From a phage, in assembly GCA_036253495.1 (NCBI GenBank), contig GCA_036253495.1_4125.1: a stretch of 64,000 nt of DNA, one strand, 5' to 3'. Shown here in pieces: positions 1,873 to 22,438 of the stretch. The notes beneath the pieces were generated by a model, which had not been told where the DNA came from, did not search any database, and worked only from the letters and a program-made list of their open reading frames with translations. The translations under genes were made by a program, and so were the position numbers. Position 1 is the stretch's first letter, and every line of letters begins with the position of its first letter.

Positions 1873-2427
1873 ATGGACAATTACCTATTAATCTTACAAA
1901 TTTACAACGAACTGGGAAAACTTCTTGAAACGTGTAATTCACAGGGACGTAAATTAAGAATCGGTTTCGATTATGAAATTGAATACACAGGAGAGGGTAT
2001 TGCAACGCAGCAGATGTTCACAGAAGAAAATAAAACTATTCTGTGCGTTTACCCACATGAAGGTGATGAGGAAGACTGTGTTGTTGATTTTTCATATGAC
2101 AGTTCTTGGGCTTTTATTTCACGTAATCCTCGAATGAAAGAGGCAGTGGATTACAAAGAACCATCATATGATCCTATTGCGTTGTTCAGTACTGAGAATT
2201 TAGAAGAACAAAATTTCCAGAGTTCTGTAACTCACGATAAATTAATCACTGATGCACTTACGATTGAAGCTTTAGCACGTAACTATAAATTTGATTTCAA
2301 TCTCAATAATTATTATATGTCATATAGTGCAACAGCATCATTACTCACTGATGATCAATTAGTAGTATTACTCAAGGACTTGAAAAACTACGCACAAACG
2401 AGAAAAGAACATGAAAACACTAATTGA
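1873..2427 (+). CDS. hypothetical protein, FQ-motif paralog family
   Basis: Track ORF 1816..2427 trimmed to first ATG at 1873 (GAGGA RBS; upstream part overlaps the terminator); motif EEQNFQSS. Confidence 0.65.
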   Translation: MDNYLLILQIYNELGKLLETCNSQGRKLRIGFDYEIEYTGEGIATQQMFTEENKTILCVYPHEGDEEDCVVDFSYDSSWAFISRNPRMKEAVDYKEPSYDPIALFSTENLEEQNFQSSVTHDKLITDALTIEALARNYKFDFNLNNYYMSYSATASLLTDDQLVVLLKDLKNYAQTRKEHENTN

Positions 2428-2983
2428 TATTTTTAAAGTACTAGAAGAACTTACTCATAAGTTAGATGAACAAAAAAGAACTGAGAATATTTTTCATTAC
2501 TTCAACAATCCAATGTACCGATTAGTTTTTGATTGCAGTACTTTGTATCGTTATGCTAATATCCAAATACAACACTGCATTCAACATAAAACCAAAAATA
2601 TATGGTCAGTTGATGCTTCTTATGTGGCATCAGGCAGAGAGAGTAAATTTTTGGGTTCAGTTTCTGATTGTAGTCTTACTGTGAATAAACTCAAAGAAAC
2701 TAACGAATTAATCGTCAGAAATTTGTACGATGATTATTATGATGATGAAGAATATCTTCATATTGCACCTGAGCTACAAAATCCAGAAGAGCGAGAAGCA
2801 TATCTTTTCCAGTTGTCGTTGCTCCCAGGTTATGATATGATAGCTAAAGCTGATTTTGTATATCAACTATCAATGCAACTTGGTAGTGGGGAGTGTTCTG
2901 CTTTCAATAATCTATACAATGAAAGTACTGAAACACAAGAAGAATTATTGGAGGAATTAAATGCATTTCTCAAATCTTTATAA
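2411..2983 (+). CDS. hypothetical protein, FQ-motif paralog family
   Basis: ORF track; motif AYLFQLSL; short overlap with neighbours. Confidence 0.65.
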   Translation: MKTLIDIFKVLEELTHKLDEQKRTENIFHYFNNPMYRLVFDCSTLYRYANIQIQHCIQHKTKNIWSVDASYVASGRESKFLGSVSDCSLTVNKLKETNELIVRNLYDDYYDDEEYLHIAPELQNPEEREAYLFQLSLLPGYDMIAKADFVYQLSMQLGSGECSAFNNLYNESTETQEELLEELNAFLKSL

Positions 2984-3539
2984 TTACATGTCCGAAGAGT
3001 ATCAATATTACACTAAGATGGTTTTGAAAGTGAATGCTATTCTTAATAGTGATTTATGTAAAACTAAAAAGACATTTAATCTCCCATATATGCGTTTGGC
3101 GATTACTAAAGACCAGGAAGGTATGTATGATCATGCAGTAGTTTCGATGAATGATCTACGTGTCTTTCTGATAATTAAGTACAATAAAGAAGATTTAACC
3201 AACAACGATGGGTACATTAACTACGATTATATTATTGGAGGAAATGCTGAAGTTCCAGGGACAAGTGAATTTGCAGGGATTGTTATTTCAGGTAAAAAAA
3301 TTCCAAAGATTAATCTTAACAGTAGTACTATAGAAGAAGAACTATTCCAGTTAAGTACTATGTACAGTACTAACGAATTGGATTTATTACTTTTCAGTAC
3401 AATCGTCAATCATGAACTGGATAAGAAAGACAAATACTGTCCATTGCAACAAATTGTTCATCGTTTCAAACGTAGTGAATTTAAAAGAATTCATGAAGGT
3501 CTGGACAGTCTTATTAACAATACTGGGGATTTCTCATGA
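2961..3539 (+). CDS. hypothetical protein, FQ-motif paralog family
   Basis: ORF track; motif EEELFQLST. Confidence 0.65.
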   Translation: MHFSNLYNYMSEEYQYYTKMVLKVNAILNSDLCKTKKTFNLPYMRLAITKDQEGMYDHAVVSMNDLRVFLIIKYNKEDLTNNDGYINYDYIIGGNAEVPGTSEFAGIVISGKKIPKINLNSSTIEEELFQLSTMYSTNELDLLLFSTIVNHELDKKDKYCPLQQIVHRFKRSEFKRIHEGLDSLINNTGDFS

Positions 3540-4096
3540 AATATAGTCTTTACTATAGAGGGAAGTTCCTTGAGAAGTTTATTGAAGATTGTGTAGCTGC
3601 ACTGAGTTTAATTCGTGAAGGTGAATACATTAAAGTCAATCACACTGTACTAAGAGATCTTAATTTTTTTCTGAGTGGTGATTTGAATAATGATATGCAC
3701 TTCACAATAACGTACAACCACAAAGATATCATTGAAATCAATACACAACAACGACACATAAAAGAATACACCCGATTACGCAATACCAAGACAAAGCGTG
3801 TAGTAATTAAAAAAGGTGATGTAGAGTTGATGTGTAAAGATAGTACTGCAATAGATATCAGTACTTACTTCGATAATGAAGAAGATATGGATTGTGATTG
3901 CTTCCAGAAGAGTTTAATTATTGATGATCCGTATGTACTGTACGGTGCAGTACTGGCTCCGTTCTGTCAGAAGAACTTACCAGATGGATGTACGGTTGAA
4001 TTGAACTTGACAGAACTCATGAATGATGATATATTTGAGTACATGAGTACTAACTCCAAGGCAATGATTGAACATATTAAGGCAATCCAATGTTAA
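3536..4096 (+). CDS. hypothetical protein, FQ-motif paralog family
   Basis: ORF track; ATGA overlap; motif DCDCFQKSL. Confidence 0.65.
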   Translation: MKYSLYYRGKFLEKFIEDCVAALSLIREGEYIKVNHTVLRDLNFFLSGDLNNDMHFTITYNHKDIIEINTQQRHIKEYTRLRNTKTKRVVIKKGDVELMCKDSTAIDISTYFDNEEDMDCDCFQKSLIIDDPYVLYGAVLAPFCQKNLPDGCTVELNLTELMNDDIFEYMSTNSKAMIEHIKAIQC

Positions 4097-4575
4097 ATCC
4101 AGCAGACGTTATTAAATTTTGTAAAATTCTTGAGAAGTATTCTCATAAATTTGTGCACGAAGTACAGATAATGATTGATGGCATTCCCTTTAACTTCGTG
4201 AAAAACAACGACATTATCGCTGTGTTCTGTGGCTCATGGACATTTTGTGAACTCAACTGTCAAGAATCTCAAAATGTTATTGTGAAACGAAACATGATCC
4301 TATCAAGGGAAAGTTCAGTATTCATTGAACCAAGTGGTGAAATCATATACGAGAAAAAGAACGGCGACAGAACTTTAGATGATTTTATGGCTGAATTGAG
4401 CCTTGATAATGAGTTTCATAGAAATGCAGTACTGATACATAGTGCTATGGTGCATGAAACTAATTTAAATTCTATATCAATTAATTTCGGTGTTTATTCT
4501 TATTACAAATTTACATTTGATATGATATTTCAAACACTTAACAAACATCCTATATTCTGGAAATGCAATGAATAA
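4090..4575 (+). CDS. hypothetical protein
   Basis: ORF track; tight packing. Confidence 0.6.
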   Translation: MLNPADVIKFCKILEKYSHKFVHEVQIMIDGIPFNFVKNNDIIAVFCGSWTFCELNCQESQNVIVKRNMILSRESSVFIEPSGEIIYEKKNGDRTLDDFMAELSLDNEFHRNAVLIHSAMVHETNLNSISINFGVYSYYKFTFDMIFQTLNKHPIFWKCNE

Positions 4576-5026
4576 AGACGATTACGAATTACTGAAAAAG
4601 TTAATCCAGTACTGCCTCAATGAACTGGATAATGGTAAAGCTCGAAAATCAGGTTCATGGTTTGATGTAAGCTATCCATCAGACGGCGATGATATGATGA
4701 CATTATGGTCAAATGAAAGATACATTGATTATAGTGTAATGGATAATACTACTATAGATTATGTCAATGACAATGTATGGTATTTCAATACACAGTTAAT
4801 CATTGATATTAAAAGTATAGATTTAAGTACTGAGATTGATGAAGCAACCATATTTCAATTAAGTACTTTGTATTCTGATGAAGTGATATATCCGTTATTA
4901 CTTCTCCTACAGTTGCGAGCCATTGCAGCAGAACGTGGTTTCACATCCATATCATTTGCTCATGACATTGATGTACGAAGAGCTGAAATTACAAAATTAG
5001 TTGAGGGATATGATGGAACACTTTAG
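4568..5026 (+). CDS. hypothetical protein, FQ-motif paralog family
   Basis: ORF track; motif DEATIFQLST. Confidence 0.65.
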   Translation: MNKDDYELLKKLIQYCLNELDNGKARKSGSWFDVSYPSDGDDMMTLWSNERYIDYSVMDNTTIDYVNDNVWYFNTQLIIDIKSIDLSTEIDEATIFQLSTLYSDEVIYPLLLLLQLRAIAAERGFTSISFAHDIDVRRAEITKLVEGYDGTL

Positions 5027-5504
5027 TACTAAAGACTTTGTGGAATTGCATAAAATTCTTGAAGAAAAATATATCAATGAACAATATGGTCGATTCGAAC
5101 TGGCTCCAGATATTATTCTTAAAATACAAAAAGATGGTATGATCCGAGTTGTATTTGAGCAGAAAAGAGGTTTAGACCATGACATTTTCATGCTCTTTGA
5201 TAGCAATAGTCCTATCTATGATGCACCAAGTTTCGATACAAGCACCATTGGTTCACAATCCGCAGTCTTTCATCCAGGAACTACTGTTGTAAAAATCGAT
5301 GGTGTAGATTGCAACATGCGACCTGTATCATTGGATGAAATTGATGAAGTTGAATTTCAGAACAGTACTGTGAATAATTATAGTGCAATGTTCACCTACA
5401 TGTGCTATCTTAACAGTACTTGTTGCAAATTTCTTATGTACACATCGTATGTAAATGAAGATGAAGTACTACACTATGTATTGAAAAAACTAAGAGAATT
5501 ATGA
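5001..5504 (+). CDS. hypothetical protein, FQ-motif paralog family
   Basis: ORF track; motif EVEFQNST. Confidence 0.65.
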   Translation: MRDMMEHFSTKDFVELHKILEEKYINEQYGRFELAPDIILKIQKDGMIRVVFEQKRGLDHDIFMLFDSNSPIYDAPSFDTSTIGSQSAVFHPGTTVVKIDGVDCNMRPVSLDEIDEVEFQNSTVNNYSAMFTYMCYLNSTCCKFLMYTSYVNEDEVLHYVLKKLREL

Positions 5505-5505
5505 T

Positions 5506-6108
5506 ATGATCATTGACATGCCTATTCTTAATAAAATGCTTAACCCTGTCATTACGTTAGCTAAAAGTATTTCTAATAATGAAAAGTTGCATCTCCCATA
5601 CTCTATGTTAACGTATGCAACTGATTTTTACAGGATTGAAATCTCGGCATGTGAACAACGAATTACACTAGCATTCAAACGCCTTGGTGCTGGACTTGCA
5701 AATGATTTTGATATTTCACTGATACTTCATGGTGAATTAGAAGATAGTAAAATTCTGTCCTATGAAAGAATTCTTCGCAGTACAAATGAAATAAAATTAT
5801 TCAAAACATTTTCACATTATAATGGTTCTGATGTTTCATATTATTTTGATAAGGATTCATTTAAGAATATCAAAAGTGTTGAAGTGAAAGATTTCAGCGA
5901 AGAATGGTATTTTCAAAATACATTAATTCATTCTTTACCTTCATATGAAGAAATGAAGATGAACATTGATCTTTATGAAAAATTAAAATCAGAACTGAAA
6001 TGTAATTTTCTATTATCAATGAACTACAAAAAGATCAGTACTGATGTGGTATTGGAAGATGAACTAATGAAACGAATTTGGTCTGCTATACCAGTTATTA
6101 AGGAATAA
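5506..6108 (+). CDS. hypothetical protein, FQ-motif paralog family
   Basis: ORF track; motif EEWYFQNTL. Confidence 0.65.
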   Translation: MIIDMPILNKMLNPVITLAKSISNNEKLHLPYSMLTYATDFYRIEISACEQRITLAFKRLGAGLANDFDISLILHGELEDSKILSYERILRSTNEIKLFKTFSHYNGSDVSYYFDKDSFKNIKSVEVKDFSEEWYFQNTLIHSLPSYEEMKMNIDLYEKLKSELKCNFLLSMNYKKISTDVVLEDELMKRIWSAIPVIKE

Positions 6109-6110
6109 TA

Positions 6111-6650
6111 ATGCACATTGCAACATTATCAAATACTAAAGAATTTGAGCTATGGCCTGAGAAAGTTAACAGCTTAAGACAGCGTTATGTGAATTTCTGC
6201 CGTGGTATCAGGAAAGCCAGTAGAATGTCACATTCACTAAGCATGTCAATTGATGGTTGTGTTATGAATGCAGATAAGAACCGTTTGTACGTTGAATCAT
6301 ACAGTTCGCAAGCTCTGTACATTATGCTTCATGCTGGTACACAAATCCCACAGAATTCGATTGGTTGTTATTCAATTACATGGTCTGGACGAAAGTCTAC
6401 TAAATTATATCCGTGCAAAAGAAACGACCAATCGTTCAGTGTTGATATTAATTACTGTGAGTACACTGAAGAAGAACACTTTCAGCACAGTACTCTTCAT
6501 GATATCATTGAGTACAATGAATGCATCAATGTACTGGATAAATGTTATGATTTAGAACATAATACTGGTATCGTTGTAGTTAATAATTGCTTTTTTGATA
6601 GTGATGTACTTGATACATTAGATTATTTTTTAGAGGGTTACAATGACTAA
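6111..6650 (+). CDS. hypothetical protein, FQ-motif paralog family
   Basis: ORF track; motif EEEHFQHST. Confidence 0.65.
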   Translation: MHIATLSNTKEFELWPEKVNSLRQRYVNFCRGIRKASRMSHSLSMSIDGCVMNADKNRLYVESYSSQALYIMLHAGTQIPQNSIGCYSITWSGRKSTKLYPCKRNDQSFSVDINYCEYTEEEHFQHSTLHDIIEYNECINVLDKCYDLEHNTGIVVVNNCFFDSDVLDTLDYFLEGYND

Positions 6651-7260
6651 CATTAGAACAGAGTATGTTAAGTACGAGAAAGCACTACGTGATTTACTAA
6701 ACATTGCACCGGATTTAATTAGAGCTAAACAAACACTATTTGACAAGTACGGTCCGAAAAGTGAACTCAAGCTATCAAAAAAGGGAAAACCCACACAATA
6801 TACAACGCTGTATAATAGATATAGCGTTGGGATTTGTAATATCTATACAGATGAATTAGTACTGGAATTAACCCAAGACGATGATGAAGAAGCACATGAT
6901 TTATTTCCTGAATTTGAAGAGTGCATGTTTAGTCCAGGTAATCCAGTGTTTTTAACCTTAAATGATGGAAGAAAAACGCTAAAAGAATCGTTCATCACAT
7001 ATGATGCCAAAACTAAAACACTAATGGATATTGAATCTGGGTATAAGACTGATCTGAAATCACTTGAAGATTGTAAGGGTGCATTGTTTCAGATGGGTGT
7101 AATCACAGAGGTTACCACTACACCAGAAGAATTATGGCTTATGGTTTCAGTACTGAATGATTGGTACAAAGTGAAGAGTCTACGAAATATGTTCATTTAT
7201 ATCAAGCCTGATTGCATCAAGAAAGAAACACTAATTAACAATATGGTAATACCTGAATGA
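6643..7260 (+). CDS. hypothetical protein, FQ-motif paralog family
   Basis: ORF track; motif GALFQMGV. Confidence 0.65.
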   Translation: MTNIRTEYVKYEKALRDLLNIAPDLIRAKQTLFDKYGPKSELKLSKKGKPTQYTTLYNRYSVGICNIYTDELVLELTQDDDEEAHDLFPEFEECMFSPGNPVFLTLNDGRKTLKESFITYDAKTKTLMDIESGYKTDLKSLEDCKGALFQMGVITEVTTTPEELWLMVSVLNDWYKVKSLRNMFIYIKPDCIKKETLINNMVIPE

Positions 7261-7856
7261 AAAAAGATCCAAATGAAGACTTAATCAATTCTTTAAGTAC
7301 TATCAAAGATTTGTGGTTACGATATCGTGGATTGTATAGTGTTAAAGATACAGAAAATAACATACTCCAAAGTCTTAAAATCACGATTCGAATGCAATTC
7401 AAAAATGGAATGGCAGTTGATGTTGAGATGAACAAAACTGGAGTTTATGTATATGATGGTTCTCGAACTGCAATCTTTATGGCAGAATTCATAGATGAAG
7501 ACTGTAATCTATATTGTTCATACGACATTGAAAGTGGTGATATCGAAATGTTCGCTAATGAACCTATCCTGCTCCGTTTCACTAAATCATGGAATGAAGA
7601 TTACATTATATATCAAAATGGAGGCTTCTTAAATTCCGATGAGGAACCCATCGATAACATAGAAGAAATGGCATTCCAGAGTAGTACTGTTAATGATGAT
7701 GCATTATCTTATCAAGAAATCCTTGACACAGTGAATGGTTATGATAAGATACAGGCTGCAATGAAAGAGAACGGTATCTGTTACCTTACAGTACTGGACA
7801 AACTCTTCTACGATGAACTGTGTTCGTACCTGAACTGTATTCTCACTGAGGATTGA
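7257..7856 (+). CDS. hypothetical protein, FQ-motif paralog family
   Basis: ORF track; motif IEEMAFQSST. Confidence 0.65.
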   Translation: MKKDPNEDLINSLSTIKDLWLRYRGLYSVKDTENNILQSLKITIRMQFKNGMAVDVEMNKTGVYVYDGSRTAIFMAEFIDEDCNLYCSYDIESGDIEMFANEPILLRFTKSWNEDYIIYQNGGFLNSDEEPIDNIEEMAFQSSTVNDDALSYQEILDTVNGYDKIQAAMKENGICYLTVLDKLFYDELCSYLNCILTED

Positions 7857-8272
7857 TGATGATTCTATACCATGCAAGTACTGTTAAAATTGACAACTTC
7901 TACATTCCTTATGGTGGTTTACATATGGGAGGGAAGCATAGTGCTCTTGAGGCTGCGTTACGCAAGCTGAGAAGCCCACTGAACGTTGTTGATGCTGACA
8001 CGGTGTACTTGCATACCTTAGAAGTTGACGTTGATAACGTGCTTCTGTGTGAGGATATGGGTAGTGATGACGAATGGCGATCACTTATTGAGTATTGTGA
8101 TACTGAAGGTTACGATGCAGTTCAGTACAAGAATGAATACGAGCCGGACAATGTTCCTAGTTATATGATTTGGGATACATCTAAAGTTCGTATTGTTGAA
8201 GTTGATGCTATGCATATGGATGAAGCTGAAATGATTATCGAAGATTTTCTTGATGAATATGAAGGTGTATAA
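7856..8272 (+). CDS. hypothetical protein
   Basis: Track ORF 7853..8272 (TTG) trimmed to ATG at 7856 overlapping upstream stop (TGATG). Confidence 0.6.
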   Translation: MMILYHASTVKIDNFYIPYGGLHMGGKHSALEAALRKLRSPLNVVDADTVYLHTLEVDVDNVLLCEDMGSDDEWRSLIEYCDTEGYDAVQYKNEYEPDNVPSYMIWDTSKVRIVEVDAMHMDEAEMIIEDFLDEYEGV

Positions 8273-8796
8273 TGACTGATTCAATGACAGTACTGGTACG
8301 TACTAAGTTACTATTGAAGATTGGTGAGATTTTCACAGATCTTATGCACAATCAAATTGATATTACAGAACTAGATATTAAGCAACCGTGGGAAATTACA
8401 AGGTTCTCGGCGTTCCACCGATTGTCATATAAAGGTGAAACTGTTCTTGATTTTAATCACAAAGCAAAATTCATGGATTATGCCGCGTTGTACCGAAATA
8501 ATTATTCAGGTTGTATAACCAATAACTTCAAAGGAATAAAAGTACAGATTGAATCAATTGAATTTAACGAATTACTATATCCAGAATTTAAGTTAACTGA
8601 AGAATCTATGTTTCAGTACTCACTAATTCTAAAAGATCTAGAAACTCTAGAGTACTACAGAGAGTTAGTAGATATTTTTATGAATGTTCGTCTTTCAAAA
8701 GATATTGTGATATTCTGGTATACAGAGCGTATTACAGAGGAAGTACTTGAAGAATTTCTCGTAAATATGACAGCTATTAAGGAGAATTTATGTTAG
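8272..8796 (+). CDS. hypothetical protein, FQ-motif paralog family
   Basis: ORF track; motif EESMFQYSL. Confidence 0.65.
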   Translation: MTDSMTVLVRTKLLLKIGEIFTDLMHNQIDITELDIKQPWEITRFSAFHRLSYKGETVLDFNHKAKFMDYAALYRNNYSGCITNNFKGIKVQIESIEFNELLYPEFKLTEESMFQYSLILKDLETLEYYRELVDIFMNVRLSKDIVIFWYTERITEEVLEEFLVNMTAIKENLC

Positions 8797-9254
8797 ACAT
8801 TTTAGGAAACATTGATACGGTAAACTTTTTTATTCAAGACGCAATTATCAATATCACATCAAAGCCAATCCAAGTTAGAAGTAACTTTTATAGTGGGGAT
8901 GGTTATATGGTTGATATTGTTGAAGTTAAGAAAAATGTTTTCCAAATCAATATTCTCACACAAACGAGAACACAGATTTCTCGTATCATCATCAATAAAG
9001 ATGAAGCCGTCATTCGTTATAATTCAAAATTCATGATGTTCTTTAAAAAGAAAACTGGTATGTTCAGTACTAATCTCTTTGATGAATCATTTTATTCAAC
9101 CGATGTGGAATCTACCTTCTTCACACAAAGTACATTTATCAAATTTGATAGTATTGAGTTCGATTCAAATATCATGTCAGAAACATTACAATGCCTAAAG
9201 GTATTACATAATGAATTTACCAACTTTATCGATAGCCGAAACAAGATTAACTAA
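8790..9254 (+). CDS. hypothetical protein, probable FQ-family member
   Basis: ORF track; degenerate motif FFTQSTF. Confidence 0.6.
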   Translation: MLDILGNIDTVNFFIQDAIINITSKPIQVRSNFYSGDGYMVDIVEVKKNVFQINILTQTRTQISRIIINKDEAVIRYNSKFMMFFKKKTGMFSTNLFDESFYSTDVESTFFTQSTFIKFDSIEFDSNIMSETLQCLKVLHNEFTNFIDSRNKIN

Positions 9255-9669
9255 TATAAATGAATTAGTTAATGCTATCTTATCATGCAAATTAAAAATT
9301 GATACCAAATGTAAGTACAATGGTATTAATTTATACAAATTAAAATATTCACGAATACATAATTCAGTAAAATACATTTACGGTACTAGTCAAATCATCT
9401 TTGAAACGGTTACAGTGAACAGTAAATTACTTATTGATGTTTATATCAGTAATAAGATTAAAAATTCACAAAAAGTGTTGACAGTTTCTTCTGATAATGT
9501 TACTATGTTTGATACCAACAATAAGAAGTTAGATATTGATTTAGATGTTATTCTTGATGGTGACTTATTCCAGTACGAGTGTATTGGTCTAAATAATCCA
9601 TTTGATAAATCAGTACTAGTCAATTTAATCAAACATATTAAGGGTATTTTAGATGAAACTAACAACTGA
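9211..9669 (+). CDS. hypothetical protein, probable FQ-family member
   Basis: ORF track; motif GDLFQYEC; 44 nt overlap with upstream ORF, start uncertain. Confidence 0.55.
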   Translation: MNLPTLSIAETRLTNINELVNAILSCKLKIDTKCKYNGINLYKLKYSRIHNSVKYIYGTSQIIFETVTVNSKLLIDVYISNKIKNSQKVLTVSSDNVTMFDTNNKKLDIDLDVILDGDLFQYECIGLNNPFDKSVLVNLIKHIKGILDETNN

Positions 9670-10153
9670 TATGAAACTTTGCATTTCTTTGATTATGCGT
9701 TCATTCGATGACAAAAGGACAAGTAAAGTTACTATCACCAATGACCATTTACAATGCAGTACACTCAATAGTACTGTAGTTTTCGGATTACATAGCCTCC
9801 GTTTGACGATAGTAAATAATATTGACAATACGGCGATGTGTATTACCCCCTGCCACGTTCAGGATGAACATGGTGTTTATCTTCACCACATGGGGACTTC
9901 GTATTTCATTTTCAATGAAGAAAAGGGAGTACAAAAAGACTTTAACACGTTGTGCGTAGACGGCGGTGAATTGTTCCAGATGGGAACTTTATATCAGTGT
10001 GATTTTACTGATACATCTGAAGTACTTCCATTATTTCTTGATCTCATTAAGAATTTAGGTTCATTTACTGGTCGCTATAACAAATCATTAAAGGCACAGG
10101 CAATTCAAAATATCTCGGAAGCAATAGAATATTACGAAAACGCTGTGTCGTAA
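9653..10153 (+). CDS. hypothetical protein, FQ-motif paralog family
   Basis: ORF track; motif GELFQMGTL. Confidence 0.65.
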   Translation: MKLTTDMKLCISLIMRSFDDKRTSKVTITNDHLQCSTLNSTVVFGLHSLRLTIVNNIDNTAMCITPCHVQDEHGVYLHHMGTSYFIFNEEKGVQKDFNTLCVDGGELFQMGTLYQCDFTDTSEVLPLFLDLIKNLGSFTGRYNKSLKAQAIQNISEAIEYYENAVS

Positions 10154-10193
10154 CACCAGCACATGGATGTGCGATGACGATCAAGGATAGATC

Positions 10194-10667
10194 ATGGAGA
10201 TTAAAACTGTTGAAAACGGAAAGATTGATGACATTTTAGAGTTGGACGCTTTCAAAGTGCATGATATAATGTTTAACGTAAGAGACATTATCCAATGCCT
10301 TTTCTTGTGCAGCAAGTCAATGTATGAACATTTCCATTGCCCACGTACTAATATTTTTATACTAACTATCAGTACTGAAAACTCATTTATAATGGGTATA
10401 CCAATGAATACGAATGAAGAATATATTGATTGTGTTGTTCGTAATGATCCTTCTATCACACCACAGAGTGAAGTGCATAAGAAGAAAAATACATATACTA
10501 TTAAAGACGATAAAATTATGATGTGCGTTACCAAGGGTTTTCTACTTGACAACTTCATAATCAAAGATAGTTATCATGACTTTAAAGTATCTGAGAAGCA
10601 AGTCAACGTAGTTCTATATGCAAGTGATATCGAGAGCCTTACAGTGAAAGATCCAGACCTGGAGTAA
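10194..10667 (+). CDS. hypothetical protein
   Basis: ORF track; AGGATAG RBS before ATG. Confidence 0.65.
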   Translation: MEIKTVENGKIDDILELDAFKVHDIMFNVRDIIQCLFLCSKSMYEHFHCPRTNIFILTISTENSFIMGIPMNTNEEYIDCVVRNDPSITPQSEVHKKKNTYTIKDDKIMMCVTKGFLLDNFIIKDSYHDFKVSEKQVNVVLYASDIESLTVKDPDLE

Positions 10668-10669: not shown

Positions 10670-10807
10670 ATGGCTAAGAAATCTAAAGTAAACAACTTTG
10701 TTGCAAAGCACTGTAATGAGTTTAATAAGGCTCAAGTGCACGTGGACCGCAAGAAAGCTGCAAAAAATGGAAAAATTAAACACCAGTCGAGATTTTATCT
10801 CGACTAA
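10670..10807 (+). CDS. small basic protein (45 aa), hypothetical
   Basis: ATG 2 nt after upstream stop with GGAG RBS; MAKKSKVNNF...; below track size cut-off; terminator hairpin overlaps its 3-prime end. Confidence 0.4.
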   Translation: MAKKSKVNNFVAKHCNEFNKAQVHVDRKKAAKNGKIKHQSRFYLD

Positions 10808-10813
10808 TTTTTT
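10785..10813 (+). terminator. rho-independent terminator
   Basis: Hairpin agtcgagat/atctcgact followed by T-run. Confidence 0.65.
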
Positions 10814-10829
10814 GTCCGAGGAAATGTAA

Positions 10830-11666
10830 ATGTTCTTAAACTTCAAAGAGTATTCAGTACTTGATCATATCAAGATTCTATCTGAGAATCCTGAAACATT
10901 TGGTGCAGTAAAAACAGCAAATGGAGAATCTTATGATGTTTATAACATTACAGGACATACTGTTTCTGTAAAAAACAATATCCGTCCTTCGACACTAGAT
11001 ATTAATATTCGTAATAATGAAACTTATGAAACTTCACTATCATACGAATATGATTCAGATCTTAAGTCTGAAATATTCAACACACCATCAGTCCATTATT
11101 ACAAGTCAGAAGATACAATTCGTTACCGAGATACCACGATTAATGATATAGTTTTTAATCGTAGAATTAATGCCAGTGGTATAGTTTCAGTTCGTAGTAC
11201 TGATAGATTTGCAAAATATACTGTCGAAAATAATGTACGATCATTTGAAACAACTTTCCGTCTAACACAAGGTACAGAAGAAAGCAACATCACACTCCAA
11301 GAACGTTTGTCATCAGACGGGATTATTATGCGTAGTGTTGCTTTTTTCAGATATAACACCGAAGATGGGCGTCCAGTGATGTGTGATTTGGATATCACTC
11401 GTACAGGTGATAAAACAATTGCCACTATAACCTCTGGATACCGACATTCGTTTACATTAGAACTGGATGTACCTGATGCATCATTACTTGGTATTTTTGA
11501 TCCGCTGGCAGCATTTCAAGCAGAGTTAGTACTGAACCCTAAGCAGTACGAGATTCTTGATATCTTACGTAAAGGCATAGTTAATAAGTTGAAAACTTAC
11601 CAACAGTTAGGTGGTAAGATGAGTATAGTTAATACTATTCTCGAAAATATTGAAAGAGTAAGTTAA
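10830..11666 (+). CDS. hypothetical protein (278 aa)
   Basis: ORF track; GAGGAAATG RBS context. Confidence 0.7.
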   Translation: MFLNFKEYSVLDHIKILSENPETFGAVKTANGESYDVYNITGHTVSVKNNIRPSTLDINIRNNETYETSLSYEYDSDLKSEIFNTPSVHYYKSEDTIRYRDTTINDIVFNRRINASGIVSVRSTDRFAKYTVENNVRSFETTFRLTQGTEESNITLQERLSSDGIIMRSVAFFRYNTEDGRPVMCDLDITRTGDKTIATITSGYRHSFTLELDVPDASLLGIFDPLAAFQAELVLNPKQYEILDILRKGIVNKLKTYQQLGGKMSIVNTILENIERVS

Positions 11667-17231: not shown

Positions 17232-17504
17232 ATGGACTATCGAGTACTGAATAGAACATATAAAGCTTTATACAAAACATATATTGAAAGTAAAGTACAT
17301 AATCCTATCATTTATAAAAATCCAGTTTATATTATATGGAATGAATATTTTACAATGATTCAAAATTACTTTTACTCTAACGAAATCTTTATAGATGGTG
17401 AAATGCGTAAGCTAACACGCGTTGATAGTATAGGTGGTGAAATTGTGTTATTCTATACTGATTCTATTATTGGACAACAATCTATAAATTTAGAGATATT
17501 ATAA
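17232..17504 (+). CDS. small protein, IG-motif paralog family
   Basis: 90 aa; N-terminal MDYRVLNRTYK and central SNEIFIDGE. Confidence 0.65.
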   Translation: MDYRVLNRTYKALYKTYIESKVHNPIIYKNPVYIIWNEYFTMIQNYFYSNEIFIDGEMRKLTRVDSIGGEIVLFYTDSIIGQQSINLEIL

Positions 17505-17770
17505 TGAATTATAAGGATTTACATTTCACCTATAAACTAACATTTTATATGTATCGTTATGCTGATAACAACTTCATGGATAATGCATTTTATCATCGTT
17601 TGTGGAGTGATTATATAAATTCTTTACGTGAACATTTTATAGGTACTATAATTCAATACGAAGGTAAAACAGTAAAAATATTTCAAGTTGATAGTTACAA
17701 CGGGGATCTATGCTTCAAGGGTAGAGATTCTAGTGATGGATTACATGAGATTTATATCTATGAATTATAA
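17504..17770 (+). CDS. small protein, IG-motif paralog family
   Basis: 88 aa; MNYKDLHFTYK...LREHFIGTII. Confidence 0.65.
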   Translation: MNYKDLHFTYKLTFYMYRYADNNFMDNAFYHRLWSDYINSLREHFIGTIIQYEGKTVKIFQVDSYNGDLCFKGRDSSDGLHEIYIYEL

Positions 17771-18035
17771 GGATTTACAATTCACGTACAAAATTCTTCA
17801 TGAACAATATGAACGTGGTGAAGGAATATTAACTTACGATGAACGAGATTTTTTTCTTACATTGTGGTGTGAATATTTGGCAATGATTAACGAGATTTTT
17901 GTTGATAAAGAATATATGATTGACGACATGACTGTACGTATTATCAGAATTAAAAGTTATAATGGAAGTCTTGTTGGAATTTACTATAACAATGAAAAGG
18001 CGAAAAGCGGATTTGTTGATTTGGAGTATCTATGA
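17760..18035 (+). CDS. small protein, IG-motif paralog family
   Basis: Track ORF 17688..18035 trimmed to the ATG giving MNYKDLQFTYK, matching paralog N termini. Confidence 0.65.
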   Translation: MNYKDLQFTYKILHEQYERGEGILTYDERDFFLTLWCEYLAMINEIFVDKEYMIDDMTVRIIRIKSYNGSLVGIYYNNEKAKSGFVDLEYL

Positions 18036-18295
18036 ACTATAATGATTTACAATTCACGTATCAACTTTTATATGATGATATGAATAACGAATTAGGTTTC
18101 TACTATGAAGTACGTAATAAAATATGGTCAAATTATCTATCTGAGATACAACATCATTTTATAGGACTTCCAATACGTAGAAATAATAAAAACTATCGTT
18201 GTACTGATGTAGTAAGTCATAGAGGTAGGTTGCGTTTAGAATTCTACCGCAGAGACGGGGACTTCATTGGTATAAATTTACTGGATTTTAAATGA
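18032..18295 (+). CDS. small protein, IG-motif paralog family
   Basis: 87 aa; MNYNDLQFTYQ...IQHHFIGLPI. Confidence 0.65.
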   Translation: MNYNDLQFTYQLLYDDMNNELGFYYEVRNKIWSNYLSEIQHHFIGLPIRRNNKNYRCTDVVSHRGRLRLEFYRRDGDFIGINLLDFK

Positions 18296-18358
18296 TGAAA
18301 AACAACTTAAAGGAAATACAAGTATTTTATAGATTCTTATACTTGTCATATGTAACAG

Positions 18359-18580
18359 ATGAGTACTATGAAAGTGTGTATTATTTTTTTATGGCAACAT
18401 TACCGTACTATAGTAAGAGATTTATATATAGGAAAATCTATCATATCCAATGGTGAAAAATGTACCTGTACAGATGTTGTTAGTTTTAATGGTTCTTTAA
18501 CACTGTGTTTCAGATGCGATAATAATAGTGGGTCATTTTCATTAAACGTATATCAGTTAGAAGGAATAAATTTTGAATAA
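18359..18580 (+). CDS. small protein, IG-motif paralog family
   Basis: 73 aa; RDLYIGKSII...CTCTDVVSFNGSL resembles neighbours. Confidence 0.55.
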   Translation: MSTMKVCIIFLWQHYRTIVRDLYIGKSIISNGEKCTCTDVVSFNGSLTLCFRCDNNSGSFSLNVYQLEGINFE

Positions 18581-18773
18581 GTGTCCATATTGTAACAGTA
18601 CTCAATTAGCTCGTTTCCGCTTAGATTCAGACTGGGCCACTGGTGCTGGGGATTTCTTTCCCATCAATGATGATGCGGAATACACTGAAGAACAGCACAA
18701 AGATTTTGATAAATCATGGCGACCTGACATTGAGTGCATTTATTGCCTTAATTGTGAGCGTGTACATGACTAA
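18573..18773 (+). CDS. small zinc-ribbon protein
   Basis: 66 aa; CPYCN ... CIYCLNC cysteine pairs. Confidence 0.55.
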   Translation: MNKCPYCNSTQLARFRLDSDWATGAGDFFPINDDAEYTEEQHKDFDKSWRPDIECIYCLNCERVHD

Positions 18774-19029
18774 AGCTGAACTAATAGTTCATACATATAA
18801 AATGATATACAGTACTGAGTTATCCTGTGGTGCAGATAATCCAGTACTGGACTATTTTATAGAATCTTTGAAAGAACATTATATTGGTAAATCACTGATT
18901 CTTAATAATATTAATTTCACTGTAAAGGATGTAGCACCTGGAAAAAACGTACTAATAGTATGTGTTACTTCATCTGATAACCCAGTATACCCAATAACAA
19001 TAATTTTTGAGGTATTAGGTGATTTATGA
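18766..19029 (+). CDS. small protein, IG-motif paralog family
   Basis: Track ORF 18643..19029 trimmed to ATG overlapping upstream stop; LKEHYIGKSLIL. Confidence 0.6.
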   Translation: MTKAELIVHTYKMIYSTELSCGADNPVLDYFIESLKEHYIGKSLILNNINFTVKDVAPGKNVLIVCVTSSDNPVYPITIIFEVLGDL

Positions 19030-19316
19030 ATATCATTTTAATACAGAAAACATATGCTATATTGGTGAAAGATTATTCCATTACATTCGATTCACAAGAA
19101 AGTGCTCTACATAACCTATACAAAAACGTAACACAAGAATACAGAAATATGTTTTCTGACTTAGTAGTAGGAAGATATTTCAGTACTAGAAAATATCCAA
19201 AACTTCAAGCAGAGGATGTTTCTTTTTATTTCAATGGTCATATTACTATTCATAGTTTAGACCAAAATTCACCAACGTACTTAAACTTTTCATTCGATGA
19301 GGTAACCTTTTTATGA
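19026..19316 (+). CDS. hypothetical protein
   Basis: ORF track; ATGA overlap. Confidence 0.6.
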   Translation: MNIILIQKTYAILVKDYSITFDSQESALHNLYKNVTQEYRNMFSDLVVGRYFSTRKYPKLQAEDVSFYFNGHITIHSLDQNSPTYLNFSFDEVTFL

Positions 19317-19495
19317 GAACATTATTTTTTATCTGGAGTCTTTTTTCTCTTGCAGTACTGACAGTTGCAGGTGCTTATTCATTTTTAACAATGAATACAT
19401 GGTATATCAATTTACTATTTCCAATTGTCGGTGTAGGTTTAGGATTTACTTTACATAGTGTATGTAAGGATTTCAATGACAAATCAAACAAATGA
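19313..19495 (+). CDS. small hydrophobic (membrane) protein
   Basis: 60 aa, two hydrophobic segments. Confidence 0.5.
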   Translation: MRTLFFIWSLFSLAVLTVAGAYSFLTMNTWYINLLFPIVGVGLGFTLHSVCKDFNDKSNK

Positions 19496-19760
19496 AGTAC
19501 TTATTGCTGAAACAATGAAGATGATTTATAGTATTACTACAGCACAGAATATGCCCTATCCCATTAAGTCTTTATTGAGGACCGTGTATCTTGTGACTGT
19601 GCAGGAATACTATAAATCCAAGCACAAAAGCATTATTAGTGTTTATCGTGATTATGAAAGGATTCGTATTTTGTACTGGAACAAGAACCGAGTACGTTCT
19701 GAATGTGACCTTGCGGACTTCAAATTAGAGAATCTTTATTGTTATAAAGCGGGACAGTAG
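19476..19760 (+). CDS. hypothetical protein
   Basis: Track ORF 19458..19760; start placed at internal ATG, uncertain. Confidence 0.5.
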   Translation: MTNQTNEVLIAETMKMIYSITTAQNMPYPIKSLLRTVYLVTVQEYYKSKHKSIISVYRDYERIRILYWNKNRVRSECDLADFKLENLYCYKAGQ

Positions 19761-20555: not shown

Positions 20556-20834
20556 ATGAATTTACAAAGAGATGTGTGGACATATGAATATCTTTTAGAA
20601 CTTTATGGTGATATGTATATTAAAAATAAACCATACATAGACGATATAAGGGCTATGATAGATGATTTTTCTTCTGAGTTTATTCCACTTTATACTAATA
20701 AAGAAGTTACACATAAATCAATGAATAAATCAGGTATCATTGATGAAATTGATTTTGATACACATGGTGTGTATTTTTATATTATTTTCTCCAATGATAC
20801 TGTTGGTATATACACGTATAAAGAATTAAAATAA
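20556..20834 (+). CDS. hypothetical protein
   Basis: ORF track; terminator downstream. Confidence 0.65.
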   Translation: MNLQRDVWTYEYLLELYGDMYIKNKPYIDDIRAMIDDFSSEFIPLYTNKEVTHKSMNKSGIIDEIDFDTHGVYFYIIFSNDTVGIYTYKELK

Positions 20835-20839
20835 GTACA

Positions 20840-20867
20840 GGCCAGCATGGATTGCTGGTCTTTTTTG
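20840..20867 (+). terminator. rho-independent terminator
   Basis: Hairpin ccagca/tgctgg followed by TTTTTT. Confidence 0.6.
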
Positions 20868-20877
20868 TAGGTACATT

Positions 20878-21177
20878 ATGGACAAAATACAATTAGTTAG
20901 TAGTACTATAACAATGCTTGCTGATGTTGCCAGATGGAGCAGTGGTGGTTCCGTTAGTACTATGCTCGGTATACTCACGCAATACACCTATACATGCAAT
21001 GGAATGTTATATGGTAAGGAGGTTGAAATTGATGATCCCTATGGAATTCCCATATCATATGACCGAGGTGTAATAAAAAGGGTTACTCTGAGACTAACAT
21101 ATCATCCATATTTTGTAGTAGAACTTCCAGATGGAAAATTAAGAGAATATGTTGCTAAAAGGTTAAAACTAAAATGA
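20878..21177 (+). CDS. hypothetical protein
   Basis: ORF track. Confidence 0.65.
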   Translation: MDKIQLVSSTITMLADVARWSSGGSVSTMLGILTQYTYTCNGMLYGKEVEIDDPYGIPISYDRGVIKRVTLRLTYHPYFVVELPDGKLREYVAKRLKLK

Positions 21178-21752
21178 ATATTGTAGAATTAAGTACTAAG
21201 CTGATTACTATGCGTAACGAGTGGTACAATTGGTATTATAACGGTACTGACATGGATTTTTCAAAATATCCATTTATGGAATCAGGATGTGATTCAAGAT
21301 ACCGCTGGTTGAGTAAAGATGATTCTGGTTTACATATTCGAGTTGATGATAGTGGTCAGGGAATTATAAAAGATTTACTTCAAGTTGAAGAACTCGTCCA
21401 TGATGAGTGGTGTGATAATGATCCATACCTAGGAAATATAATTTATGTAACTGAAGATGATTGTATATTCGTCATTCAGCGTCATGGTGATTCTATGTTT
21501 TATATAGCAGACAGCAGTACACCTGAAGGTGCAGCATCAGATGGTCTTATTCCTAAGATTAATATATTAGATTTTGGCTTACCTGAGCACTTCCAGATGA
21601 GTACTCTATTCGATATTCCACCGTTTGAGTTCTTTGACGAATTTAAATTGTACTACAGTGATCTTCAGAAATTGAGTACAGAGAGTCGTATTGAAATAAC
21701 TGTCAGGTACATGGACGGGGCAAAATTAACCGACACGGGGATAGAATTTTGA
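21174..21752 (+). CDS. hypothetical protein, FQ-motif paralog family
   Basis: ORF track; motif PEHFQMSTL. Confidence 0.65.
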   Translation: MNIVELSTKLITMRNEWYNWYYNGTDMDFSKYPFMESGCDSRYRWLSKDDSGLHIRVDDSGQGIIKDLLQVEELVHDEWCDNDPYLGNIIYVTEDDCIFVIQRHGDSMFYIADSSTPEGAASDGLIPKINILDFGLPEHFQMSTLFDIPPFEFFDEFKLYYSDLQKLSTESRIEITVRYMDGAKLTDTGIEF

Positions 21753-22438
21753 TTAAAGATTTAGATAGAATTTTATATGTACTAAGGGGTGTAATTACTT
21801 TACAACCACAGATTAACCGCATGGAGAGAGCCTTTGAATTAAAATCAAGAGAAACTCCATATTCACATATATCAAATGTAGTTGGCTCATTCTGCTCTGA
21901 AGACTCTGCATATGATATATATGTGTGTGAAGTACAGCCCAGTAATGATCTTGGTTTTGCAATCTTCGATAAAAATCAAGTACTGGTCAGTATGTTTCAG
22001 TGCAATAATCCTTTCTGGAAAACATGCCTGTACCCTGATTGGGCTATGCTTGACCCTACGAAGAGTAAGATTAAAGTATATGACTCTAAGAATGAAGAAG
22101 TTGTTATTGATTTGGATGAATCAATGACAGAGGAAGAACACTTCCAGCTTATGATGATGCGTGCGATGCCAGACTATGAAGCAATGATTAACACAGTACA
22201 ATACATTAAGGATACGATGAGATCATTGTGTAATCATGAGTTTTGTCATCCAGTATCTTATGAACATTTGGATTTAGATTTCAGTACTATCAAGTTTAAA
22301 GATAGTGTTATTGAATATATCCAAGAGAACACTAAATTTGATTTTATTAGTACAATGACAAATAATCCAAATACTAATTTCAGGCATCAGTACAATGAAT
22401 CTTTGTCTAATGGTCGAGATACCAGTTGGTGGAAATAA
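21749..22438 (+). CDS. hypothetical protein, FQ-motif paralog family
   Basis: ORF track; motif TEEEHFQLMM. Confidence 0.65.
   Translation: MIKDLDRILYVLRGVITLQPQINRMERAFELKSRETPYSHISNVVGSFCSEDSAYDIYVCEVQPSNDLGFAIFDKNQVLVSMFQCNNPFWKTCLYPDWAMLDPTKSKIKVYDSKNEEVVIDLDESMTEEEHFQLMMMRAMPDYEAMINTVQYIKDTMRSLCNHEFCHPVSYEHLDLDFSTIKFKDSVIEYIQENTKFDFISTMTNNPNTNFRHQYNESLSNGRDTSWWK

What the first reader, a model, noticed from the sequence alone, without database searches (positions are those of the whole stretch)
1873..22438. Second tandem paralog family (150-230 aa) with an acidic-x-x-F-Q-x-S-T motif, about 16 members in two blocks
Consecutive ORFs from 1873 to 10153, plus two at 21174-22438, carry a conserved block about two-thirds of the way through: EEELFQLST, DEATIFQLST, EVEFQNST, EEWYFQNTL, EEEHFQHST, IEEMAFQSST, EESMFQYSL, GELFQMGTL, PEHFQMSTL, TEEEHFQLMM. 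The rest of each protein has diverged. The ST of the motif is usually encoded by AGTACT, tying this family to the palindrome enrichment. This is a 9 kb array of duplicated, rapidly diverging early genes.
Basis: partly seen in the sequence, partly recalled or inferred. Interest (0 to 1): 0.7.

Follow-up and report, generated by a model that had tools for sequence, protein, structure and literature searches.

The report
Huge undescribed jumbo-phage gene family
The ORFs belong to a real, previously undescribed family of small acidic proteins sharing an invariant Phe-Gln motif, present in at least 47 tandem copies in this E. coli jumbo phage and in its relatives; its function is unknown, most likely a repertoire of early host-interaction proteins.

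Summary
The window is an Escherichia phage A4-like jumbo phage (Asteriusvirus, Rak2-like group). Fourteen of the 18 ORFs in the two blocks carry [ST]-E-E-x-[YL]-F-Q-x-S-[TL]-[VIL]-[YHFW]-[DN] about 0.67 of the way along. They are recognised by a profile trained only on copies outside the window.

It runs about 20 kb off the left edge of the window. At least 47 copies lie in 115 kb of the A4-like genome (about 6% of it). At least 46 are in 121Q, 32 in RaK2, 7 in GAP32 and 6 in CBB. Phe and Gln are invariant in all 130 aligned members.

There is no Pfam or NCBIfam model, and members are split over 34 PHROGs of unknown function. No paper in the searchable library describes the family.

One AlphaFold model (pLDDT 78) gives an N-terminal helix, a beta-meander and three helices. 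The motif is the first of the three. The nearest fold, weakly, is acidic p32/Mam33.

Positional orthologues in 121Q are only 24-36% identical, against 76% for neighbouring genes. Even so, window versus A4 gives dN/dS of 0.11.

The AGTACT link is only the genome-wide codon-pair bias. Function is inferred, not shown.

The parts
1804..1844 (+). Terminator-like hairpin (1804-1829) after the chemotaxis-receptor-like gene. It overlaps a sigma-70-like promoter match (1816-1844, TTGACT-17-TATTAT with TG), 29 bp upstream of the first family gene in the window.
   Evidence: This is weak evidence: the promoter-like count in the region is not above that of shuffled sequence.
1873..2427 (+). Family member, 184 aa, motif NLEEQNFQSSVTH.
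   Evidence: Upstream-only HMM E 5.8e-5. Flank-shuffle z 3.95. No 121Q counterpart by reciprocal best hit.
2411..2983 (+). Family member, 190 aa, motif EREAYLFQLSLLP.
   Evidence: Upstream-only HMM E 0.0045. hhalign against the rest of the family: 24% probability over 26 columns. Matches phrog_36945.
2961..3539 (+). Family member, 192 aa, motif TIEEELFQLSTMY.
   Evidence: hhalign 94.6% probability, E 7e-8. Cross-hits to phrog_38467 and phrog_12674 over the motif region.
3536..4096 (+). Family member, 186 aa, motif DMDCDCFQKSLII.
   Evidence: Upstream-only HMM E 0.001. Flank-shuffle z 3.1.
4568..5026 (+). Family member, 152 aa, motif IDEATIFQLSTLY. It is the window copy closest to the family consensus.
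   Evidence: Upstream-only HMM E 6e-8. hhalign 92.6% probability. AlphaFold model of low confidence (pLDDT 50) with the motif in a helix.
5001..5504 (+). Family member, 164-167 aa (the start could be 5001, 5010 or 5013), motif IDEVEFQNSTVN.
   Evidence: Full HMM E 3.5e-14 with itself included. Upstream-only HMM E 0.026. hhalign 32% probability.
5506..6108 (+). Family member, 200 aa, motif FSEEWYFQNTLIH.
   Evidence: Upstream-only HMM E 8.3e-6. hhalign 93.5% probability over 42 columns.
6111..6650 (+). Family member, 179 aa, motif YTEEEHFQHSTLH.
   Evidence: Upstream-only HMM E 3.4e-7. hhalign 93.9% probability.
7257..7856 (+). Family member, 199 aa, motif NIEEMAFQSSTVN.
   Evidence: Full HMM E 3.7e-15. 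hhalign 67.7% probability over 54 columns. Upstream-only HMM is weak, E 0.13.
8272..8796 (+). Family member, 174 aa, motif LTEESMFQYSLIL. It is 79% identical to its 121Q orthologue.
   Evidence: Upstream-only HMM E 9.3e-5. hhalign 93.6% probability. dN/dS 0.23 against 121Q.
9211..9669 (+). Borderline member, 152 aa, motif ILDGDLFQYECIG.
   Evidence: Upstream-only HMM E 9.6e-4. Flank-shuffle z 2.6. However, E is 0.0036 with the 130-sequence HMM and hhalign gives only 14% probability.
9653..10153 (+). Family member, 166 aa, motif VDGGELFQMGTLY. This is the copy with the usable structure model.
   Evidence: Upstream-only HMM E 1.9e-4. Flank-shuffle z 4.1. AlphaFold pLDDT 78.4, pTM 0.75.
21174..21752 (+). 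Family member, 192 aa, motif FGLPEHFQMSTLF. It lies in a separate second block and is 87% identical to its 121Q orthologue.
   Evidence: Full HMM E 3.3e-11. The 121Q orthologue is found by the A4 HMM at E 1.7e-9. dN/dS 0.23.
21749..22438 (+). Family member, 229 aa, motif MTEEEHFQLMMMR (Ser replaced by Met).
   Evidence: Upstream-only HMM E 1.3e-4. Enters the 130-sequence HMM at E 2.3e-7. hhalign 79.5% probability over 54 columns.
6643..7260 (+). ORF inside the array with a weak motif (CKGALFQMGVI). It may be a degenerate member, but this is not statistically supported.
   Evidence: HMM E 0.1-0.9. hhalign 3% probability.
4090..4575 (+). ORF inside the array without FQ at the expected position (DDFMAELSLDN). 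Not supported as a member.
   Evidence: No HMM hit. hhalign 0.2% probability. No homologue in 121Q, RaK2 or GAP32.
8790..9254 (+). Conserved ORF inside the array (ESTFFTQSTFIKF). Not supported as a member.
   Evidence: hhalign 1.3% probability. Matches phrog_15293, with orthologues in 121Q, RaK2 and GAP32.
7853..8272 (+). Non-family gene that anchors the array. It is conserved in all five phages examined, and family copies sit immediately upstream of it in each of them.
   Evidence: 92% amino-acid identity to 121Q and 59% to RaK2. hhalign 0.2% probability against the family. Synteny seen.

Best explanation
The ORFs belong to one large, lineage-specifically expanded family of small acidic cytoplasmic proteins: 100-230 aa, median pI 4.8, net charge about -9. 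The family is found in Rak2-like jumbo phages.

The shared element is a helix that begins with a Ser/Thr-Glu-Glu capping box and carries an invariant Phe-Gln. In the model it is the first of three C-terminal helices that follow an N-terminal helix and an antiparallel beta-meander. I read the motif as the conserved packing element of a common scaffold, with the rest of the surface free to vary.

An ancestral block of about six 200-aa copies lies just upstream of a conserved non-family gene (window 7853-8272). Upstream of that block, Asteriusvirus and Alcyoneusvirus have added dozens of further copies by tandem duplication. Individual copies are kept by purifying selection, exist as very old divergent alleles, and are exchanged between lineages.

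Most likely function (inferred, not shown): a repertoire of binding proteins made early from the end of the genome next to the terminal repeat. Each would neutralise or redirect a different host protein, or a protein of a competing element. Given their acidity, the likely targets are basic proteins such as nucleic-acid-binding defence or nucleoid proteins.
For: Family reality
- The out-of-window HMM recovers window copies.
- The same HMM finds 42, 30 and 3 copies in three other phages, with decoys at E 0.2 or worse. It grows to 130 members on iteration, plus 6 in CBB.
- F and Q are invariant in all 130 aligned members.
- The flanks carry signal: Stouffer z 8.7.

Real genes
- dN/dS is 0.11 for window versus A4 and 0.11-0.77 versus 121Q.

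Scaffold
- The AlphaFold model of 9653-10153 has pLDDT 78 and pTM 0.75.
- An independently computed BFVD model of a RaK2 protein superposes on it at TM 0.79-0.80.
- The low-confidence model of 4568-5026 (pLDDT 50) also puts the motif in a short helix, followed by a long helix and a terminal helix.
- The motif logo shows Ser/Thr at -5 and Glu at -4 and -3, which is a helix N-cap. Conserved positions -1, 0, +3, +4 and +7 fall on one helical face.

Variability
- Family positional orthologues have a median of 38% identity, against 76% for neighbours.
- Copy numbers are 47, 46, 32, 7 and 6 in the five phages.

Not virion proteins
- In RaK2, all 54 virion proteins detected by mass spectrometry map to two other gene clusters (PMC3622015).
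- In GAP32 and CBB, genes flagged 'virion structural protein' do not include family members.

Position
- In CBB the array starts 64 bp after the 22.4-kb terminal repeat.
- All copies are on one strand and tightly packed.
- A terminator plus a promoter-like site precede the window block.

Acidity
Against: - No experiment or transcriptome bears on timing or function.
- Promoter-like sites are not enriched over shuffled sequence.
- For window members, similarity outside the roughly 15-50 residues around the motif cannot be shown by profile-profile comparison. A common fold for all copies is therefore extrapolated from one good model and its orthologue.
- In that model the motif helix has only pLDDT 53-61.
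- Short-term dN/dS of 0.11 shows no sign of ongoing diversifying selection.
Confidence: 0.5

Rival explanations
1. The FQ block is a portable short linear motif, and the proteins are not a common fold. It would be a docking or processing site recognised by a single partner. The block reads E-x-x-[YL]-F-Q, which resembles the potyviral TEV protease site E-x-x-Y-x-Q|S/G. A Gln-specific protease, or an adaptor-binding partner, would then act on all members.
For: - Detectable similarity among window members is confined to 12-54 columns around the motif.
- The motif has Glu at -4 (P6) in 93 of 129 members, Tyr or Leu at -1 (P3), and invariant Phe-Gln at P2-P1.
- Some copies read EEGYFQGS.
- The motif region is the least confident part of the good model.
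Against: - Conservation continues strongly on the C-terminal side (S+3, T/L+4, V/I/L+5, aromatic +6, D/N+7). The P1' position is mostly Tyr, Leu, Glu or Gln rather than Gly or Ser.
- Both models place the block in a helix, not an extended loop.
- The position is fixed at 0.67 of protein length and about 53 residues from the C-terminus.
- The flanks add signal.
- The N-terminal and C-terminal halves of orthologues diverge together.
- No cognate protease was identified.
Confidence: 0.12
2. The family serves the phage's own physiology rather than conflict with the host. For example, the proteins could be acidic chaperones or assembly factors for basic phage proteins, as p32/Mam33 is for mitochondrial ribosomal proteins. 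Alternatively they could be regulators of phage replication or transcription.
For: - The top six Foldseek matches in the PDB are all p32/C1QBP, over the full length (E 0.02-0.07).
- The topology is the same (helix, beta-meander, C-terminal helices) and both families are acidic.
- Purifying selection is strong.
Against: - hhalign of p32 against the family gives 0.15% probability.
- Housekeeping functions do not normally show 6-to-47-fold copy-number differences between genera, or 24-36% identity between positional orthologues within a genus.
Confidence: 0.15
3. The proteins are virion-packaged (internal or ejected) proteins that are delivered with the DNA.
For: They are small, acidic and numerous, and are encoded near a genome end, as are some ejected proteins of other phages. 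This is general knowledge and was not tested here.
Against: - The RaK2 virion proteome of 54 proteins maps to other clusters (PMC3622015).
- The structural-protein flags in the GAP32 and CBB annotations skip the family.
Confidence: 0.04
4. The family is not real. The motif recurs by chance, or because of the AGTACT DNA-word bias, in unrelated ORFs.
For: - Pairwise BLASTP between window members is never better than E 0.007.
- All six Ser-Thr motifs in the window are encoded AGTACT.
Against: - 43 ORFs carry the motif against 1 when reversed.
- Phe-Gln is invariant in 130 members from four phages in three genera, and a further 6 copies with the FQ motif are found in CBB.
- Cross-genome HMM hits have decoys at E 0.2 or worse.
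- Half of the members have Ser-Leu encoded by unrelated codons.
- AGTACT use equals the genome-wide Ser-Thr rate.
Confidence: 0.01

Closest known systems
PHROGs 12674, 9317, 13866 and 31 others (all 'unknown function')
   Same: These clusters hold the same proteins. Sixteen of the 46 A4/window members hit phrog_12674, 11 hit phrog_9317 and 9 hit phrog_13866.
   Different: PHROGs' remote-homology clustering did not unite them: the 46 members fall into 34 PHROGs. No name, motif or function is attached. No Pfam or NCBIfam model exists.
p32 / gC1qR / Mam33 (MAM33 family), the acidic mitochondrial matrix protein
   Same: - The secondary-structure order is the same (N-terminal helix, antiparallel beta-meander, C-terminal helices), and both are strongly acidic.
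- What p32 does comes from my own knowledge and was not tested here: it binds many basic partners.
   Different: - There is no sequence relationship (hhalign probability 0.15%).
- The phage proteins have three C-terminal helices, and their oligomeric state is unknown.
Lineage-specific multigene expansions in large viruses. Examples are the ~35-copy zinc-ribbon expansion in Bacillus phage G (PMC7824862) and, from my own knowledge, the ASFV MGF families and poxvirus ankyrin families.
   Same: - Tandem arrays near a genome end.
- Copy number differs between relatives.
- A conserved core motif with variable remainder.
- Unknown or host-interaction function.
   Different: - The protein family is different.
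- At about 47 copies it is larger than the phage G example.
- A host-interaction role is not shown here.
Small acidic early anti-host proteins of T-odd and T-even phages (Ocr, Arn, gp5.5, from my own knowledge), and ArdA
   Same: They are similar in size and acidity, and in presumed early expression. This is the kind of mechanism proposed here.
   Different: - There is no sequence or fold match.
- ArdA (PF07275) was hit by 1 of 46 members at E 0.074, below its cut-off.
- Those proteins are single-copy genes, not arrays.

Membership tests
Rak2-like phage 'FQ' family (defined here) | Invariant Phe-Gln within [ST]EEx[YL]FQxS[TL][VIL][YHFW][DN], at about two-thirds of a 100-230 aa protein. | tested here: met
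   Met by 14 window ORFs.
Rak2-like phage 'FQ' family (defined here) | Significant match to a family profile that does not contain the protein or its orthologues. | tested here: met
   - The upstream-only HMM gives 11 window ORFs above the best decoy.
- Leave-group-out hhalign probability exceeds 65% for 7 of the 12 members tested, and is 79.5% for 21749-22438.
- It is 22-32% for four others and 3% for 1873-2427. That last ORF is supported instead by the upstream-only HMM (E 5.8e-5).
Rak2-like phage 'FQ' family (defined here) | Homology over the whole length, not only over the motif. | tested here: inconclusive
   - The flank-shuffle test is positive: Stouffer z 8.7.
- Out-of-window 'canonical' copies align end to end.
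- Window copies with the motif removed give no hhalign signal.
MAM33 / p32 | Sequence-profile match to the family. | tested here: not met
   - hhalign of 1p32_A against the 130-sequence alignment gives 0.15% probability.
- There is no Pfam MAM33 hit.
MAM33 / p32 | Fold of one helix, seven antiparallel strands and C-terminal helices. | tested here: inconclusive
   - Foldseek E 0.02-0.07 with TM about 0.3.
MAM33 / p32 | Doughnut-shaped homotrimer with an asymmetric negative surface. | not testable with these tools
ArdA antirestriction proteins (PF07275) | Pfam match above the gathering score. | tested here: not met
   One of 46 members matched, at E 0.074 and 14 bits against a cut-off of 27.
TEV/NIa-type protease substrate site (E-x-x-Y-x-Q|G/S) | Small P1' residue (Gly or Ser) and an extended, exposed conformation. 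| tested here: not met
   - P1' is mostly Tyr, Leu, Glu, Gln, Asn or Met.
- The block is predicted to be helical.
TEV/NIa-type protease substrate site (E-x-x-Y-x-Q|G/S) | A cognate Gln-specific protease encoded by the phage or host, and cleavage observed. | not tested
   No protease search was made. Cleavage needs an experiment.

The most novel reading that the evidence does not exclude
The family could be a phage counterpart of the adaptor multigene families of large eukaryotic viruses. The invariant FQ helix would be a common handle, either docking to one host or phage machine such as a protease or the transcription apparatus, or serving as a Gln-specific processing site. The hypervariable beta-sheet of each of the roughly 47 paralogues would capture a different target. 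Together they would form a combinatorial host-takeover or anti-defence repertoire built on a p32-like acidic scaffold.
Probability: 0.12. Interest if true: 0.8.

Novelty: new member of a known kind. Interest (0 to 1): 0.5.

Why it matters
Rak2-like jumbo phages (121Q, PBECO4, phAPEC6, RaK2, GAP32, CBB) are widely isolated and are being considered for therapy, yet about 80% of their genes are unannotated. In the 115 kb of the A4-like genome examined, this one family accounts for at least 47 genes and about 23 kb, which is 6.4% of the 355.5-kb A4 genome.

Recognising it does four things:
- It joins 34 separate PHROGs into one family.
- It gives a concrete, countable example of jumbo-genome growth by tandem duplication.
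- It marks the most variable stretch between otherwise similar phages as a candidate determinant of host range or defence evasion.
- It gives a simple handle, the invariant Phe-Gln, for mutagenesis and pull-down experiments.

Tried and rejected
- **Pairwise BLASTP among window ORFs.** Nothing better than E 0.007, and only over the motif.
- **Pfam, NCBIfam and PDB sequence searches.** No family found. The only PDB 'hit' was a chance match to an acetylcholine-receptor helix.
- **The three word-indexed homologue searches.** They returned only near-identical orthologues.
- **The exhaustive search of 1.84 billion representatives.** It gave 19 hits, all orthologues of the input sequences.
- **First AlphaFold run (4568-5026).** pLDDT 50, not usable for fold search.
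- **The afdb50 library.** Unavailable.
- **ArdA lead.** One weak hit in 46 members; rejected.
- **p32 homology.** Rejected at the sequence level.
- **Idea that the motif is a recombination joint that shuffles N- and C-terminal halves.** Rejected: the two halves of 32 orthologue pairs diverge together, with one possible exception.
- **Idea that the motif is an AGTACT artefact.** Rejected.
- **Literature.** Searches and readings of the RaK2, CBB, phAPEC6, fEgEco12 and Sharanji papers and two jumbo-phage reviews found no description of the family. The RaK2 paper only remarks that about 10% of its proteins are paralogues.

Full report
**Source of the window.** Megablast of window 1800-10200 gives a 100%-coverage, 99.4%-identity match to Escherichia phage A4 (ON286972.1, 355.5 kb, genus Asteriusvirus). 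Window position 1 corresponds to about record position 50744. The window is not A4 itself. In the first 10.7 kb there are 82 mismatches, and A4 carries 641 extra bases (an HNH endonuclease gene) near window 10800-10840. Other Asteriusvirus genomes match only part of the region at 77-85% nucleotide identity.

**Check of the observation.** In a composite of A4 1-50743 plus the window, the pattern [DE]..FQ.[STGN][TLVI] is found in 43 ORFs, all on the + strand. It is found in 1 of the same ORFs when reversed. Pairwise BLASTP between window members is weak, with a best E of 0.007 confined to the motif, so profiles were needed.

Upstream of the window, A4 genes A4_334 to A4_377 carry a sharper version of the motif, for example SEEYYFQQSTVY.

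An iterated HMM over the 115-kb composite converges on 46 ORFs between A4 positions 30736 and 72495. An HMM trained only on the 33 out-of-window copies finds 11 window ORFs above the best reversed decoy (E 0.006) and 9 at E <= 1e-3.

The A4/window HMM then finds 42 copies in the syntenic 49 kb of 121Q, 30 in RaK2 (genus Alcyoneusvirus) and 3 in GAP32 (Mimasvirus). Every hit shows the motif, and the best decoy is at E 0.21. Iteration brings the set to 130 sequences: 46, 46, 32 and 7 in the four phages. Six more are found in CBB. Phe and Gln are invariant in all 130.

The motif logo is [ST]-E-E-x-[YL]-F-Q-x-S-[TL]-[VIL]-[YHFW]-[DN]. It lies at 0.67 +/- 0.06 of the protein length.

**How far does similarity extend?** For the window copies it does not extend far.
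- In leave-group-out hhalign, seven of the 12 copies tested match the rest of the family at more than 65% probability, as does 21749-22438 at 79.5%. The aligned stretch is only 12-54 columns.
- When the motif block is removed, neither the N-terminal nor the C-terminal part matches anything.
- When the 14-residue block is kept and the flanks are shuffled, scores against the out-of-window HMM fall: mean z 2.3, Stouffer z 8.7, with at most 5 of 200 shuffles reaching the real score for 8 of 14 proteins.
- The out-of-window 'canonical' copies do align end to end, including a conserved N-terminal helix and a C-terminal FYxDL element.

I conclude that these are true but very old paralogues.

**Membership in the window.** Fourteen ORFs are supported; they are listed under parts. 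ORF 9211-9669 is borderline. Four ORFs inside the run are not supported: 4090-4575, 6643-7260, 7853-8272 and 8790-9254. Three of these have motif-like remnants (DDFMAELSL, GALFQMGVI, FFTQST) and may be degenerate copies.

**Anatomy and evolution.** In all five phages, family copies sit immediately upstream of the conserved homologue of window 7853-8272, with one to three more copies just downstream. CBB and GAP32 have only this block of six to seven copies of about 200 aa. In CBB it begins 64 bp after the 22.4-kb terminal repeat. Asteriusvirus and Alcyoneusvirus have added dozens of mostly shorter copies upstream.

Between the window phage and 121Q the array is collinear. Even so, family positional orthologues have a median amino-acid identity of 38%, and 24-36% for 2411-7856. 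Non-family neighbours have 76%. A single A4 copy is only 24-32% identical to its counterpart in all 33 other genomes.

dN/dS against 121Q is 0.11-0.77 for family pairs and 0.06-0.23 for neighbours. Several family pairs have dS of 0.1-0.3 where the background is 1-1.9, which indicates gene-by-gene exchange. Over the shortest distance (window versus A4), the 12 family genes show 27 synonymous and 10 non-synonymous codon changes, dN/dS 0.11.

These are therefore functional genes under purifying selection. Their diversity is old and reshuffled, not the product of a fast clock. The N-terminal and C-terminal halves of orthologues diverge together, so the motif is not a shuffling joint.

**AGTACT.** The hexamer occurs 177 times in the window against 21.6 expected from base composition. 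In 173 + strand ORFs, 56% of all Ser-Thr dipeptides are encoded AGTACT against 13.7% expected from codon usage, and the word is also frequent in the other two frames. The family's rate of 11 in 18 is the same as this background. Half of the members have Ser-Leu with unrelated codons. The bias is a genome-wide DNA-level feature and does not explain the motif.

**Structure.**
- The first AlphaFold run (4568-5026, 22-row alignment) gave pLDDT 50.
- The second (9653-10153, with orthologues at 36-54% identity) gave pLDDT 78.4 and pTM 0.75. Its elements are helix 5-17, an antiparallel meander of strands over 26-98, helix 104-114 (the motif, with F108 and Q109), helix 119-137 and helix 144-165. The segment 91-120 has only pLDDT 53-61.
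- Two BFVD models superpose at TM 0.79-0.86: one of a RaK2 protein, and one of a protein unnamed in the UniProt tables. From its length and position the RaK2 protein is probably the orthologue.
- The Ser/Thr-Glu-Glu start reads as a helix N-cap.
- In the Foldseek search of the PDB, the six best hits are all human p32/C1QBP over the full length, but at E 0.02-0.07 and TM about 0.3.
- hhalign of the p32 sequence (checked against 1p32_A) versus the family gives 0.15% probability.

The p32 likeness is thus a weak resemblance in topology and charge, not membership.

**Comparison with what is known.**
- There is no Pfam or NCBIfam match.
- The 46 A4/window members fall into 34 PHROGs, all of unknown function.
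- An exhaustive HMMER search of 1.84 billion representatives found only orthologues of the inputs.
- None of the genome papers and reviews read describes the family. The RaK2 paper notes only that about 10% of its proteins are paralogues, and that all 54 virion proteins map to other clusters.

**Mechanism.**

Shown:
- a real, expanded, tandem protein family under purifying selection;
- acidic composition, with median pI 4.84;
- absence from the mapped virion proteomes;
- a position next to the terminal repeat;
- exceptional variability between lineages.

Inferred:
- the FQ helix is the packing element of a common alpha/beta scaffold with variable surfaces;
- the genes are expressed early, for which the only local evidence is a terminator plus a promoter-like site at 1804-1844;
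- each copy binds a different host protein or competitor protein.

The rivals are a portable docking or cleavage motif (the block resembles the TEV site ExxYxQ), a p32-like chaperone role for the phage's own basic proteins, and virion proteins. I consider all of them less likely, for the reasons given under each.

**Limits.**
- Only 115 kb of the A4-like genome and 32-49 kb of each relative were scanned, so copy numbers are lower bounds.
- A shared fold rests on one good model.
- No expression or functional data exist.

Noticed in passing
whole window (for example 431, 722, 1251 ... 63885): AGTACT occurs 177 times against 21.6 expected from base composition. In 173 + strand ORFs, 56% of all Ser-Thr dipeptides are encoded AGTACT against 13.7% expected from codon usage. 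The word is also common in the other two reading frames. This looks like DNA-level selection for the palindrome, of unknown cause.
   Followed up: partly
window 387-1799 (+): A 470-aa ORF with a methyl-accepting chemotaxis protein signalling domain (annotated as such in A4) sits between the two parts of the array. It has no counterpart in 121Q or RaK2 by reciprocal best hit. It is followed by a strong terminator-like hairpin at 1804-1829.
   Followed up: partly
window 7853-8272 (+): A non-family gene embedded in the array is the best-conserved gene of the region: 92% amino-acid identity to 121Q, 59% to RaK2, and DNA matches reaching Erwinia, Yersinia, Serratia and Pectobacterium phages. In some records the features under the DNA match include a 'putative ADP-ribosyl transferase'. 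No Pfam hit was found here.
   Followed up: partly
window about 10800-10840; L001 24001-24681: Phage A4 has 641 extra bases here, carrying a putative HNH endonuclease (A4_397) and a small ORF. The window phage lacks them, as expected for a mobile homing-endonuclease insertion.
   Followed up: yes
L002 37063-37599 (A4_348): This gene is annotated 'DNA ligase' in the A4 record, but it is a clear FQ-family member (motif SPEEYFQESLVQ; matches phrog_28680 and phrog_12674) with no ligase domain in Pfam. The annotation is probably wrong.
   Followed up: partly
the motif Gln codon in the 46 A4/window family members: The invariant Gln is encoded CAG in 33 of 46 copies, although CAG is only 36% of Gln codons in the region (Fisher p 2.6e-6). 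The paralogues are not independent observations, so the meaning is unclear.
   Followed up: partly
window 8790-9254 (+): A 154-aa ORF that is conserved in 121Q, RaK2 and GAP32 (phrog_15293, E 2.6e-57) is not annotated in the A4 record.
   Followed up: no
window 17232-19760 (+); L002 about 26000-31000: Further tandem arrays of small ORFs (60-115 aa) flank the FQ family on both sides. They are not related to the FQ family by HMM.
   Followed up: no
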